Part shown: piece by piece, positions 1-3,000 of the stretch
How the letters are laid out: each line of letters starts with the position of its first letter
Numbering within the stretch: the stretch's first letter is position 1
NCBI RefSeq assembly: GCF_035594765.1
Contig: NC_085842.1
Location: forward strand, 8,679,256-8,743,255
DNA: 64,000 nt
DNA from: Anolis carolinensis
Lineage: Eukaryota
Direction of reading: 5' to 3'
Position numbers: made by a program

Positions 1-3000
1 ATGTTGTAACTACTGTATTTACGAATTTAGCACCAAAATATCACGATATATGGAAAACATTGACTACAAAAATGGCTTGGATTATCCAGAAGCTTGGATA
101 AGCGAGGCTTGGATAAGTGAGACTCTACTGTAGTTGTCATTTCTGCTGCAACTATTGCTCAAAAGCCTGGTCCCACAACCTTTCTGCCTTTCTTTCACAG
201 AGGAAATGTGATTTTGGGCTGAGAATTTTGGAGTAGAGCCTGTGGAGGGATTTCCTTCCCTTGAAAGAAAGAAGAGGAGGAAAAACATCTTGGATACGGT
301 TGGGTTCTTCACCAGAGTGGTTCCAACATGGAGAGACCCAACTCACGTGGGCCTGAAGCAGGACCTGGGGGCAGTGGGGAGTCCTGGGAAAGAACCAGAC
401 ATGAGTCCCTGAGTGTGGACCTTGACAGCTCGGACACACAGCGCCAGCGCTTCAGGCAGTCCTCCTACCAAGAGGGTGAAGGACCCAGAGGGGTTTGCAG
501 TCGTCTCCACGACCTGTGCCGCCAGTGGCTGAAGCCAGAGCAGCACACCAAGGCCGAGGTGCTGGACCTGGTGACCCTGGAGCAGTTCCTGAGCATCCTG
601 CCCCCAGAGATGGGGAGCTGGGTCCGAGAGTGTGGGGCAGAGACCTGTTCCCAGGCGGTGGCCCTGGCGGAAGGCTTCCTCCTGAGTCGGGCCAAGGACA
701 AGGAGCAGGAAGGACAGGTGAGAGCATTCCCTCTGGGTTTCACTAACCTGGGGACTGATGGACAGGTTGAACGTACATCCTGCCTTTCTTCCAAGATGGG
801 ACCGATGTGGGGGATAAGCAAGGCCCTGCTCCCTCGGGCTCTCTCCCCACCTGCTCTGCCCCTCCATCTCTACCGTCAGCTTGGTTGATGCTCTGCTCAA
901 GATAGAACATAGACAATGATGGGAGGGGGAGGGGGGCATTGGTTCCAAACTAGGTTCCCATCTCAGAGTTATTCTTTCCAAAAAGGTCTAGAGGTCTGTG
1001 ATATTTCTGAACTTTTCCCAAACTCCTTCTGGAATGCTCTGTGCTATTCCAGGCCCCTAATAATAACTCCATGGAAGTCCCTGCACCAGAGGAATCTCCA
1101 CCAGACACCACCCAGAGTCTCAGGCAGAAGGAGCTGAAGCGGGAAGGAGACGGCGCTGCCGCCTTGCAGGGTAATTTATTTATTTATTTATTTCCAGTAT
1201 TTCTATTCCACCCTTCTTTCTCACCCCGAAGGGGACTCAGGGCGGATCACATTATACACACATAGGGCAAACATTAAATGCCCATAAACACATCAAACAG
1301 AGACAGACAGACGCAGAGGCAATTTATCCTTCTTCTGAGGATCTATTCGATTCTGGCCACGGGGGGAGCAGCTGCTTCATCATCCACTCTGACAGCACTT
1401 CCTCATTCCAGGTCATAAATTAGTTAAACTTGCCTCCCCACTTTCATAAGTGACACCTTATTTCCTACTTGATAGATGCAACTATCTTTCGGGTGGCTAG
1501 GTCAGCAACGAGCAGGGGCTATTTTTTATTTTTAATTGACGGGTGCTCACCCCGCCACGGGCTGGCCTCGAACTCATGACCTCATGGTCAGAATGATTTA
1601 TTGCAGCTGCTCAACAGCCTGTGCCACAGCCCAGGTAAGAAGGAACTCTTCTGGGAGTTTTGGGGGTTTTGTGCCAGTGGAAATCCCACTTTGGGGGGAT
1701 GAGTGCACACCCACAGTTTGAGCTTCAGAACATGAACACGCAGGATCATTTGGCCTTGAGATGGATATATATCCTTAACTCGTGTCCTTTGTATGATATT
1801 TTATGGTCTTTAATATGTATTTTATAGAAATGCAGTTTTAATGTGGATCTTTTATAGAAATACGTATTTTTGTTGAATTTTGGCAATGTTCATGTTTTTA
1901 AAATTTTGTGGTAACCTGCCTCGAGCTGCAAGGAGAGGCAAGTAAAAATGAAATTATTATTGTTATTACTCCTACTGCTACTACTGCTATTGTTATTGTT
2001 ATATGTCAGCATTGGGTTGCTAGAGGTGTAACTTCAGTTTGATTTGCAGTTTTCTTTCTTGCAATAGAACTGAAAATGCAGCCCTTCAGTGTCTTCCCAG
2101 GTGGGACCCTAAGCTGAGCCGAGCCCTGAAACTGAGATGGAAGATAAAAAGACAGGAAAGAATCACTTTAGTCAATTGAAACACCAAGCCCAGTGCTAGT
2201 TTCACTCGAATATCCTCACAGCACTGCTTGCGAGATAAAGTCCTAAACCCTCACATTGTACATCTTCTTGGGCTGTTGAATGCACCTGTGTTCTTAGGGC
2301 CGTTTCCTCATTGGTTTCTTTATAGGACTGCAATGGTCACCTCTGAGGCCTGTTTCTGTGACCAGCTTTCCACCCCTTACTCTCTCTCCAGGGTCTGGAA
2401 TGATGCTGTGGCCGAATCCTCAGCCGTTTCTCCCCCTTTGCGATGGAGTGGGACTGAGTCAGGTGAGCAGAAGGATTCCTGGGAGAGGAGGACTGGGCCT
2501 GCCGGGGTGCCTTTGGTTCCAGGATTAATGGCCAAATATCTGTTTAAACAGACAAGATTTAAGGCGTTTCCTTAGAAGTGAAATACTGAAGGCACAATTA
2601 CAAGGAGGGGAAAAAATGAAGAGAAAACTAAAGAAACCAGAATGGATGTTCAAAGAACTTTCAACGGAGCTAAGATTTAAAAGGGACATGTACATGAAAT
2701 GGGAAAGGGGGGGATCACCAAAGAATGTAAACGACTAACCAGCATAAGTAGGGAAAACATCTAACCATCTAAATCAGAAAATGAGGCCAGAAGAAGAAAT
2801 GAGCCAAGAGTAGGGTCTGTGCCTGGAGAAGGTGGTGAGATGCTAACCAGGGATAGGGAAGTGTTAGAACATGGCCTCAGTCTTCTCCCAAAAGGAAATG
2901 GGTATTCTTCCTGAGCAAGATGGAGCTACTGGGGAAATGCAACCCAAAATAGGTAAAGAAGGAGTCTAGGAATACCTGGCCACTCTCGATGAATCCATGT

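What the first reader, a model, noticed from the sequence alone, without database searches (positions are those of the whole stretch)
1161..1640. SINE inserted into a splice donor of A1, weakening it and copying a stronger donor downstream
Seen: A2 has GCAGG|GTGAGAAGG. In A1 the site reads GCAGG|GTAATT, then an antisense SINE (1175-1632), then CAG|GTAAGAAGG. The GGTAA duplication is the donor itself. The proximal donor lost +5G while the distal one is near consensus. Inference: using the distal donor adds 464 nt with an in-frame stop at 1263-1265, giving an NMD substrate or a SCAN-only protein. SCAN mediates dimerisation, so such a product could be dominant-negative. This would be a paralog-specific splicing switch created by a transposon.
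Basis: partly seen in the sequence, partly recalled or inferred. Interest (0 to 1): 0.72.

Follow-up and report, generated by a model that had tools for sequence, protein, structure and literature searches.

The report
Lizard SINE splits a splice donor
A short mobile element landed exactly on an exon-intron boundary of one copy of a duplicated anole lizard zinc-finger gene, leaving a weakened splice signal in place and a stronger copy 464 bases downstream; whether this changes the gene's products is untested.

Summary
A 458-bp repeat (1175-1632, sense on the minus strand) sits in the exon-2 donor of A1, a SCAN-KRAB-C2H2 gene. It is absent from the tandem paralogue A2. A 5-bp duplication, GGTAA (1170-1174 and 1634-1638), is the donor core. 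The repeat has three copies in the window, an (AAAT)5 tail and a 3' hairpin shared with L2-like LINEs. It is not a Sauria SINE.

The proximal donor AGG|GTAATT keeps the exon side but loses +5G. Its U1 duplex energy is -6.0 kcal/mol. The distal donor CAG|GTAAGA scores -11.0, A2's donor -9.0 and the rebuilt empty site -8.9. Reading on from exon 2 gives TAG at 1263-1265, and the distal donor adds 464 nt.

No RNA data could be reached, and MaxEntScan was not available. No database protein carries the SINE-coded peptide. Seven annotated Anolis carolinensis SCAN-only isoforms from SINE-free paralogues arise by intron retention or alternative last exons, so SCAN-only output is a family habit, not a SINE invention. 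The U-rich antisense tail just after the proximal donor could also help that donor.

The likeliest outcome is partial, near-neutral mis-splicing of one member of a family of more than 300 genes. This is a new member of a known kind.

The parts
328..717 (+). A1 exon 1, running from the ATG to the donor CAG|GTGAGA. It encodes the SCAN domain.
   Evidence: Pfam SCAN, E 7.1e-36. 94-98% identical to exon 1 of A. carolinensis proteins. Donor U1 duplex -11.1 kcal/mol.
1053..1170 (+). A1 exon 2 (118 nt, ends in codon phase 1), a linker between domains.
   Evidence: The translation APNNNSMEV...AAALQG is identical to exon 2 of P0121. Acceptor is ...ttccag| at 1051-1052.
1168..1176 (+). Proximal donor AGG|GTAATT. 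The exon side is native; +5 onwards is SINE tail.
   Evidence: Sequence. 6 of 9 matches to CAG|GTAAGT. U1 duplex -6.0 kcal/mol.
1170..1174 (.). Left copy of the target-site duplication, GGTAA.
1175..1632 (-). SINE-type retroposon, 458 bp. It has a head with a B-box-like motif, a body, a 3' hairpin shared with L2-like LINE ends, and an (AAAT)5 tail (1175-1194, seen as ATTT repeats on the + strand).
   Evidence: Absent from A2. Two further copies and one fragment in the window. 3'-end alignment with L2-like ends. B-box-like motif at the equivalent place in all 3 copies.
1263..1265 (+). First in-frame stop (TAG) when exon 2 is read past 1170. The read-through adds 31 SINE-coded residues.
1633..1633 (.). 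Orphan base A between the SINE 5' end and the right duplication copy. It supplies -2A of the distal donor.
   Evidence: The homologous base left of the insert (1169) and in A2 is G.
1634..1638 (.). Right copy of the target-site duplication, GGTAA.
1632..1640 (+). Distal donor CAG|GTAAGA. The intron side is native; -3C comes from the SINE head read in reverse.
   Evidence: 8 of 9 matches to consensus. U1 duplex -11.0 kcal/mol. The flank translates as GKKELFWEFWGF, matching the first ten residues of P0128's read-through tail.
2392..2462 (+). A1 exon 3 (71 nt).
   Evidence: P0127 residues 33-57 align at 92% and P0123 at 44 of 46. The canonical junction ...ALQG|SGMM... is seen in P0121, and its close equivalents ...ALQG|AGMM... 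in P0070 and ...ALPG|SGMM... in P0127.
2549..2575 (+). Alternative last mini-exon (TRFKAFP, then stop) that gives SCAN-only isoforms in paralogues.
   Evidence: P0123 C-terminus matches 8 of 8 residues.
4914..5040 (+). A1 KRAB exon.
   Evidence: Pfam KRAB, E 1.7e-15. Boundaries ccag|GGCCCA and CTCG|gtaagg. 3 nt and 1 aa differences from A2.
7561..8246 (+). A1 zinc-finger exon. It is open to a stop after ...HQRTHTG, as in paralogue P0127.
   Evidence: Pfam zf-C2H2, E 5.3e-31. Acceptor cacag|TAGATAAC. ORF seen.
34151..34277 (+). A2 exon 2 and its intact donor AGG|GTGAGAAGG. This is the empty site.
   Evidence: U1 duplex -9.0 kcal/mol.

Best explanation
After a roughly 33-kb segment carrying a SCAN-KRAB-C2H2 zinc-finger gene was duplicated in tandem in an Anolis genome (A. 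carolinensis or a close relative), a 458-bp SINE inserted in antisense orientation into the exon-2 donor of the upstream copy, A1. The SINE was probably mobilised by an L2-type LINE.

The staggered cut duplicated GGTAA, which is the last exon base plus +1 to +4 of the intron. Two half-native donors result. The proximal one (1170|1171) keeps the exon side but now runs into the element's tail (GTAATTT), so it loses +5G. The distal one (1634|1635) keeps the native intron side GTAAGAAGG and acquires CAG on its exon side.

Inferred consequence: canonical 1170-to-2392 splicing of A1 is lowered but not abolished. Part of the transcripts use the distal donor, retain the intron or skip exon 2. All of these routes end the reading frame soon after the SCAN domain. 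Reading through 1170 or using 1634 gives TAG at 1263; skipping exon 2 gives a stop in the fourth codon of exon 3. Products spliced through 1634 would be nonsense-mediated-decay candidates.

The family has more than 300 members and already makes SCAN-only isoforms by other routes, so the net effect is most likely a mild, near-neutral loss of full-length A1 output.

Shown: the anatomy, the empty site, the pairing energies and the reading frames. Inferred: the order of events, the LINE partner and every statement about splicing outcome.
For: Anatomy and empty site.

Repeat nature:
- 3 copies plus 1 fragment in the window.
- (AAAT)5 tail and a 3' hairpin alignable with the 3' end that follows an ORF with RVT_1 and endonuclease domains, and with 4 other such ends.

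U1 duplex energies: proximal -6.0, distal -11.0, A2 -9.0, rebuilt empty site -8.9, the gene's other donors -11.0 to -11.1 kcal/mol. No other GT in 1160-1700 that matches at least 6 of 9 consensus positions pairs better than -5.6.

Reading frames: TAG at 1263-1265; exon 3 read in phase 0 gives GLE then stop.

The ancestral donor G|GTAAGAAGG exists in the family: P0128's read-through tail begins GKKELFWEFW.

The insertion post-dates the duplication: it is absent from A2, and the read-through isoforms P0122 and P0128 run uninterrupted across the site.

A1's downstream exons are intact.

Against: - No RNA evidence of any kind was available.
- U1 pairing energy is a crude proxy, and MaxEntScan was not installed.
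- Splice-site choice also depends on regulatory elements lying between competing sites (PMC5397162; only the start of the abstract was seen).
- The U-rich antisense tail at +5 to +24 may recruit TIA-1-type helpers to the proximal donor (PMC4027183).
- Exon definition favours a 118-nt exon over a 582-nt one (general knowledge, recalled).
- No annotated protein carries the SINE-coded tail. This fits no use of the read-through, decay of the product, or simply non-annotation.
- A1's own product was not found among the cluster representatives, so even A1's expression is unconfirmed.
Confidence: 0.55

Rival explanations
1. Harmless intronic passenger. The proximal donor still works about as well as before, the whole SINE is removed as part of intron 2, and A1 makes its normal full-length protein.
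For: The proximal site keeps -1G and +1 to +4 GTAA, and gains +6T. A run with 15 U in 20 nt follows it at +5 to +24; U-rich stretches 10-28 nt downstream of donors are reported as TIA-1 binding sites that promote U1 recruitment (PMC4027183). All A1 exons downstream are open with good boundaries. No protein with the SINE-coded tail is annotated.
Against: Computed U1 pairing drops by 2.9 kcal/mol relative to the rebuilt empty site, and the site is by far the weakest donor of the gene. A donor as strong as the gene's best lies downstream in the same intron. Loss of +5G is a common cause of mis-splicing in human disease genes (recalled, not checked here).
Confidence: 0.3
2. One reading: the insertion is a selected, paralogue-specific switch that turns A1 into a producer of a stable SCAN-only protein. 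That protein would have a new 31-residue SINE-coded tail and would act as a dominant-negative dimerisation partner of other SCAN zinc-finger proteins.
For: The read-through ORF keeps the complete SCAN domain (Pfam match over residues 36-122 of exon 1). SCAN-only isoforms are evidently tolerated and annotated in this family. An ATTAAA at 1273, just after the stop, could in principle end a short transcript that would escape decay.
Against: SCAN-only isoforms already arise in SINE-free paralogues by at least four routes, so no SINE is needed. Nothing indicates selection. No annotated protein has the tail. Transcripts spliced at 1634 would carry the stop 369 nt before a junction and would be expected to decay. 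Binding was not tested.
Confidence: 0.06
3. A1 is silent or on its way to becoming a pseudogene, so the insertion has no consequence for the animal whatever the splice choice.
For: None of the representative proteins retrieved is identical to A1. All 8 fetched paralogue products carry E where A1 has K in ...SRAKDKEQ.... The family is very large and turns over quickly (PMC3971581). A1 has fewer zinc fingers than A2 (Pfam counts 4 against 10 separate matched stretches).
Against: All five A1 exons are open with canonical boundaries. The few exon differences from A2 are mostly synonymous in the SCAN and KRAB exons (exon 1: 3 nt, 1 aa; KRAB: 3 nt, 1 aa).
Confidence: 0.1
4. The element was ancestral and was lost precisely from A2, or the insert is an assembly artefact.
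For: Only two gene copies can be compared inside the window.
Against: A clean 5-bp duplication flanks the element. The A2 site and the read-through tails of P0122 and P0128 show an uninterrupted donor. Precise excision of a retroposon together with one duplication copy is very rare (general knowledge). There are no Ns or other anomalies near 1175-1632.
Confidence: 0.02

Closest known systems
Merle SINE in the dog PMEL gene
   Same: A tRNA-derived SINE inserted in reverse orientation exactly at an exon-intron boundary. The target-site duplication contains the original splice signal, and the antisense tail becomes a pyrimidine-rich tract on the pre-mRNA (PMC7349775, abstract and passages read).
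   Different: There the acceptor is hit (15-bp duplication) and the splicing shift is shown experimentally and depends on tail length. Here the donor is hit (5-bp duplication), the tail is (AAAT)5 rather than poly(A), and no RNA data exist.
Exonisation of antisense Alu and other SINEs
   Same: Antisense SINE sequence offers cryptic acceptors preceded by the U-rich reverse tail. Here a Y-rich tract plus CAG lies at 1195-1197 and another candidate acceptor (AG at 1410-1411) lies further in. The general statement is in PMC7349775.
   Different: In Alu exons both splice sites usually arise inside the element by later mutation. Here the strong donor is the gene's own, moved downstream by the duplication.
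Squam3 and other L2-partnered squamate SINEs
   Same: A (TAAA)n-type tail and a 3' end resembling L2-clade LINEs (PMC7983390, passages read; window alignment).
   Different: Squam3 consensus is 218-239 nt without the tail, has about 500 copies in A. carolinensis and rarely shows target duplications. This element is about 438 nt without the tail and has a clear duplication. It is also not Sauria/Squam1, whose tail is (ACCTTT)n and whose partner is Bov-B (PMC13295347, Results read).
Donor +5G mutations with cryptic donor activation in human disease genes
   Same: Loss of +5G lowers U1 pairing, and a stronger GT nearby can take over or the exon is skipped (recalled knowledge, no paper read for it here).
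   Different: Here the change is made by an insertion that at the same time supplies the competing donor.
SCAN-only proteins and isoforms
   Same: Proteins consisting of little more than a SCAN domain are annotated for several A. carolinensis paralogues (P0121-P0126, P0128). Stand-alone SCAN proteins are known in mammals (recalled).
   Different: Those arise without any SINE. A1's version would end in 31 SINE-coded residues and is not annotated.

Membership tests
SINE (LINE-dependent short retroposon) | Short, non-coding, repeated in the genome | tested here: met
   458 bp. Two other near-full-length copies and one fragment in 64 kb. No Pfam match to the read-through peptide.
SINE (LINE-dependent short retroposon) | Head derived from a pol III RNA with A and B boxes | tested here: inconclusive
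   A B-box-like AGTTCGARGCC (1 mismatch to the recalled consensus) sits at the same place in all 3 copies. However, the motif is not enriched in the window (5 matches against 8.1 expected). ARAGORN finds 0 tRNAs in the window. Rfam gives no tRNA or SINE match at E<=1 in 1000-2600.
SINE (LINE-dependent short retroposon) | 3' end shared with a partner LINE, plus a simple-repeat tail | tested here: met
   A terminal hairpin of about 45 nt aligns with the 3' end following the RVT_1/endonuclease ORF 40812-43190(-) and with 4 similar ends. Tail is (AAAT)5. Calling the clade 'L2' rests on recall and on PMC7983390, not on a tree.
SINE (LINE-dependent short retroposon) | Target-site duplication and an empty site elsewhere | tested here: met
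   GGTAA at 1170-1174 and 1634-1638. Empty site in A2 and in the paralogue products P0122 and P0128.
Sauria (Squam1) SINE | (ACCTTT)n tail and Bov-B-derived 3' end | tested here: not met
   The tail here is (AAAT)n. The family feature is taken from PMC13295347, section 3.3.
Squam3 SINE | 218-239 nt without tail, CORE domain, L2-like 3' end, (TAAA)n or (CTT)n tail | tested here: inconclusive
   Tail type and L2-like end fit. The length (about 438 nt without tail) does not.
SCAN-KRAB-C2H2 zinc-finger gene | SCAN, KRAB and C2H2 domains in separate exons of one gene | tested here: met
   Pfam exon by exon: SCAN E 7.1e-36, KRAB E 1.7e-15, zf-C2H2 E 5.3e-31. The same exon order is seen in P0070 and P0127.
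Transposon insertion that duplicates a splice signal and shifts splicing (merle type) | Insertion inside the splice signal, with the signal contained in the duplication | tested here: met
Transposon insertion that duplicates a splice signal and shifts splicing (merle type) | Altered splice-site use shown at the RNA level | not testable with these tools
   No transcript or eukaryotic genome collection was available. Annotated proteins resolve paralogues only to 90% clusters.
Nonsense-mediated-decay substrate | Stop codon more than about 50-55 nt upstream of an exon junction (recalled rule) | tested here: inconclusive
   If 1634 is used, the TAG at 1263-1265 lies 369 nt before the junction. Whether 1634 is used is unknown.

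The most novel reading that the evidence does not exclude
The insertion is a selected, lineage-specific device. By halving one donor into a weak upstream site and a strong downstream site, with a U-rich regulator-binding tail between them, it would make A1 a tunable two-state gene. One state is a full-length SCAN-KRAB-ZNF repressor. The other is a SCAN-only protein with a new SINE-coded tail that titrates SCAN partners, with the choice set by tissue levels of U-rich-binding splicing factors.
Probability: 0.05. Interest if true: 0.55.

Novelty: new member of a known kind. Interest (0 to 1): 0.28.

Why it matters
If RNA data confirmed a shift, this would be a clean natural example, in a reptile, of a retroposon splitting a splice donor into two competing half-native sites. 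It would be the donor-side counterpart of the dog merle allele. It would also be a ready-made pair (A1 against A2) for studying donor competition, and it would add to how transposons diversify the fast-evolving SCAN zinc-finger family of anoles. As it stands it is a well-defined structural variant in one of several hundred similar genes, with no evidence of any effect.

Tried and rejected
- My first lead, recalled from memory, was that the element is a Sauria SINE. I rejected it because that family ends in (ACCTTT)n.
- Squam3 was considered but not adopted because of the length mismatch.
- tRNA finders and Rfam gave nothing for the head. The only Rfam row (TCL6_3, 17.8 bits against a gathering score of 40, E 0.55) lies at 2356-2490 and is taken as chance.
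- I tried to find A1's own annotated protein:
  - The exon-1 search listed 120 of 1511 hits, none identical to A1.
  - The zinc-finger-exon search was swamped by long poly-finger proteins (best 120 of 6847, highest identity 63%) and led nowhere.
- RNA folding around both A1 donors and the A2 donor was no more stable than shuffles (z = 0.89, 0.23, 0.80), so no structural argument is made.
- MaxEntScan is not installed, so U1 duplex energy and consensus matches were used instead.
- Precise loss from A2 and assembly error were considered and rejected (see rivals).
- No complex prediction was run, because I make no claim that the products bind.
- The bacterial/archaeal genome collection and the phage, plasmid and E. 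coli collections were not used, because they cannot hold lizard sequence.
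Full report
**Source of the window.** The window is reptilian, not human, and I do not take it for human.
- The 130-residue translation of 328-717 finds Anolis carolinensis SCAN zinc-finger proteins at 95-99% identity (P0052 99%, P0104 97%, P0070 and P0080 95%).
- Anolis sagrei proteins reach only 84-85%, and other squamates are lower. The list showed the best 120 of 1511 hits among 1945 candidates.
- The window holds one run of 146 N at 52949-53094, which I left alone.
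- Every protein query was one exon or one contiguous genomic stretch.

**Gene context.** Two tandem paralogues lie about 33 kb apart. A1 spans 182 to about 8313 and A2 spans 33288 to about 39104. A1's exons were fixed by eye, by mapping paralogue proteins and by Pfam:

| Exon | Coordinates | Content and evidence |
|---|---|---|
| 1 | 328-717 | SCAN, E 7.1e-36 |
| 2 | 1053-1170 | 118-nt linker, ends in phase 1 |
| 3 | 2392-2462 | 71 nt |
| 4 | 4914-5040 | KRAB, E 1.7e-15 |
| 5 | 7561-8246 | C2H2 fingers, E 5.3e-31 |

The canonical junction between exons 2 and 3 is seen in paralogue proteins...AAALQG|SGMM... in P0121, and the close variants ...AAALQG|AGMM... in P0070 and ...AAALPG|SGMM... in P0127. 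All A1 exons are open. Against A2 they differ by 3 nt and 1 aa in exon 1, 3 nt and 1 aa in exon 2, 1 nt and 1 aa in exon 3, and 3 nt and 1 aa in the KRAB exon.

**The observation.** It is correct in every detail.
- A2's donor string occurs once, at 34264-34277.
- A1 1173-1633 has no counterpart in A2, and the flanking alignments overlap in A2.
- GGTAA stands at 1170-1174 and at 1634-1638. It consists of the last exon base plus +1 to +4 of the intron.
- The base before the two copies differs (G at 1169, A at 1633). This means either a 5-bp duplication with one extra base at the element's 5' junction, or a 6-bp duplication with one later change.
- In the exon-2 phase, the sequence right of the insert reads GKKELFWEFWGF.
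- P0128, an annotated A. carolinensis isoform that reads through this donor in another paralogue, has a tail beginning GKKELFWEFW. P0122 has GEKELFWEFWGF, like A2's GEKGLFREFWGF.
- So the pre-insertion A1 donor was AGG followed by GTAAGAAGG, a variant that exists elsewhere in the family.

**What the insert is.**
- It is 458 bp and lies sense on the minus strand.
- Two more copies lie at 8423-8881 and 56182-56614, and a tail fragment at 7291-7346.
- Those two copies are 95.7% alike but only about 76% like the A1 insert, so the A1 element belongs to another subfamily and I cannot date it.
- All three copies start with a similar head and carry a B-box-like AGTTCGARGCC at the same place. That motif is not enriched in the window (5 matches against 8.1 expected). 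ARAGORN and Rfam find no tRNA. The tRNA origin of the head therefore stays a resemblance only.
- The last 45 nt or so form a hairpin motif that aligns with the 3' end following an ORF with reverse-transcriptase and endonuclease domains (40812-43190, minus strand) and with four similar ends in the window.
- The tail is (AAAT)5.
- I had recalled 'Sauria SINE', but that family ends in (ACCTTT)n and partners with Bov-B (PMC13295347, Results section read), so I rejected the name.
- Squam3 has a (TAAA)n tail and an L2-like end, but it is 218-239 nt long, has about 500 copies in A. carolinensis and rarely shows duplications (PMC7983390, passages read). The fit is partial and I leave the family unnamed.

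**The two donors.** MaxEntScan was not available. I used matches to CAG|GTAAGT and the ViennaRNA duplex energy with the 5' end of U1, both motifs recalled from memory.

| Donor | Sequence | Consensus matches | U1 duplex (kcal/mol) |
|---|---|---|---|
| A1 proximal | AGG\|GTAATTTA | 6 of 9 | -6.0 |
| A1 distal | CAG\|GTAAGAAG | 8 of 9 | -11.0 |
| A2 | AGG\|GTGAGAAG | 5 of 9 | -9.0 |
| Rebuilt empty site | AGG + GTAAGAAG | 6 of 9 | -8.9 |
| Other donors of A1 and A2 | – | 7-8 of 9 | -11.0 to -11.1 |

Between 1160 and 1700 only two further GTs reach 6 of 9 matches, and both pair weakly (-5.6 and -5.3). The insertion therefore made the in-place donor the weakest of the gene. It also put a donor as good as the gene's best 464 nt downstream. 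The distal site's improvement over the ancestral one comes from -3C (the element's terminal GGG read in reverse) and -2A (the odd base at 1633).

**Consequences for the reading frame.**
- Reading past 1170 adds 31 residues (GNLFIYLFPVFLFHPSFSPRRGLRADHIIHT) and stops at TAG 1263-1265.
- Use of 1634 gives the same protein, with the stop 369 nt before the junction. By the usual rule (recalled), that makes it a decay candidate.
- Skipping exon 2 puts exon 3 in phase 0, which reads GLE then stop.
- The antisense element also offers acceptor-like sites. A Y-rich tract plus CAG lies at 1195-1197, another candidate AG at 1410-1411, and five weaker ones elsewhere. A SINE-derived exon ending at 1634 is therefore conceivable.
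- The only poly(A) hexamer found in the 1171-2600 scan is ATTAAA at 1273.

**Evidence bearing on actual use.** None is direct.
- The search with the exon-2 read-through peptide found 11 proteins among 51 candidates. I inspected 9 as sequence. The other two, P0129 and P0130, cover only 57-59% of the query, which corresponds to exon 2.
- None extends into the SINE-coded part. The only overlap is a 6-residue spurious extension for P0126.
- None of the fetched proteins is identical to A1. All 8 proteins examined have E where A1 has K near the end of exon 1.
A1's own annotation therefore stays unseen.
- The zinc-finger-exon search was swamped and useless.

**What the paralogues show.** Seven annotated A. 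carolinensis proteins of 155-221 aa contain only a SCAN domain. Mapping them to the window shows how they arise:
- P0122 and P0128: read-through of the exon-2 donor.
- P0124: read-through of the exon-3 donor.
- P0121 and P0123: an alternative last mini-exon. P0123 matches A1 2549-2575 at 8 of 8 residues.
- P0123: also an upstream alternative acceptor (2325-2462, 44 of 46).
- P0125: an exon inside the 1962-2352 segment (10 of 12).
- P0126: its exon-3-like part matches 2391-2447 only at 14 of 19 residues, and its route was not worked out.

SCAN-only output is therefore a family-wide habit that needs no SINE. This removes most of the 'paralogue-specific switch' novelty. It also suggests that this donor is leaky even when intact.

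**Arguments on both sides.**

For a shift:
- the 2.9 kcal/mol loss at the proximal site;
- the strong competitor in the same intron;
- the known sensitivity of donors to loss of +5G (recalled).

Against a full shift:
- the proximal site keeps -1G and GTAA and gains +6T;
- a run with 15 U in 20 nt now lies at +5 to +24, and U-rich stretches 10-28 nt downstream of exon ends are the reported preferred binding sites of TIA-1, which promotes U1 recruitment (PMC4027183, passages read);
- a 118-nt exon is easier to define than a 582-nt one (recalled);
- elements between competing donors can decide the outcome (PMC5397162, only the start of the abstract seen).

Local RNA folding gives no argument either way (z = 0.89, 0.23, 0.80).

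**Verdict on mechanism.** I judge partial mis-splicing with near-neutral effect the most likely outcome (0.55). An artefact or precise loss from A2 is at 0.02.

**Comparison with known cases.**
- The closest is the dog merle allele. There a tRNA-derived SINE inserted in reverse orientation at the intron 10/exon 11 boundary of PMEL. Its 15-bp duplication contains the original acceptor, and tail length decides between the original and a cryptic acceptor (PMC7349775, abstract and passages read).
- The present case is the donor-side counterpart in a lizard, without RNA proof.
- The family background is a lineage-specific expansion to more than 300 SCAN-containing zinc-finger genes in A. carolinensis, 240 of them SCAN-KRAB (PMC3971581, passages and table 1 read). 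That makes loss or change of one member unsurprising.
- I made no search for earlier descriptions of this particular insertion, so I do not claim it is unpublished.

**Left open.**
- transcript evidence;
- a proper splice-site score;
- the name and age of the SINE family;
- presence or absence of the insertion in other individuals and species;
- A1's current gene model.

Noticed in passing
window 182-1170 versus 1635-1961 (A2: 33288-34268 versus 34269-34590): A1/A2 divergence jumps at the SINE. Left of it there are 17 mismatches in 980 aligned bases (1.7%; intron 1 alone 6 of 333). Right of it there are 28 of 320 (8.8%), and intron 3 has 100 of 1665 (6.0%). Fisher p = 5e-8 for left against right. 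Either a gene-conversion tract ended at the insertion, or the SCAN end is homogenised across the whole family.
   Followed up: partly
window 1962-2352: A 391-bp piece of intron 2 is present in A1 but missing from A2. Paralogue proteins P0123 and P0125 use parts of the equivalent segment as coding exon sequence, so it looks like a deletion in A2 rather than an insertion in A1.
   Followed up: partly
window 2549-2575 and 2463-2525: An alternative last mini-exon (TRFKAFP then stop) and read-through of the exon-3 donor (VSRRIPGRGG...FQD then stop) match the C-termini of annotated SCAN-only isoforms of paralogues (P0123 8 of 8; P0124 at 91% over 46 residues).
   Followed up: partly
window 25223-29485 (-) and 58728-62989 (+): Two nearly identical CR1-type LINE copies lie in opposite orientation, each with a 443-aa ORF1. 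The second has an uninterrupted 1016-aa ORF2, so it looks like a young and possibly active element. 'CR1' is my recall from the C-terminal motif and was not tested.
   Followed up: no
window 40812-43190 (-), 3' end near 39835-39935: A LINE ORF with endonuclease and reverse-transcriptase domains. Its 3' end shares the terminal hairpin of the SINE, which makes it the likely partner family.
   Followed up: partly
window 14922-16679 (-) and 50327-52585 (-): Long minus-strand C2H2 finger arrays (585 and 752 aa open frames) sit downstream of A1 and A2 respectively. The tandem unit therefore seems to carry two zinc-finger genes.
   Followed up: no
window 7563-8243 versus 37934-39034: A1's finger exon is shorter than A2's (227 against 367 residues; Pfam counts 4 against 10 separate C2H2 stretches). 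blastn shows A2's array as staggered internal repeats of A1's, so finger number changed after the duplication.
   Followed up: no
window 8423-8881 and 56182-56614: These two SINE copies are 95.7% identical to each other but only about 76% identical to the A1 insert, so at least two subfamilies are present. The copy at 56182 lacks the first 20 bases or so of the head.
   Followed up: partly
window 52949-53094: A run of 146 N inside a minus-strand open frame.
   Followed up: no
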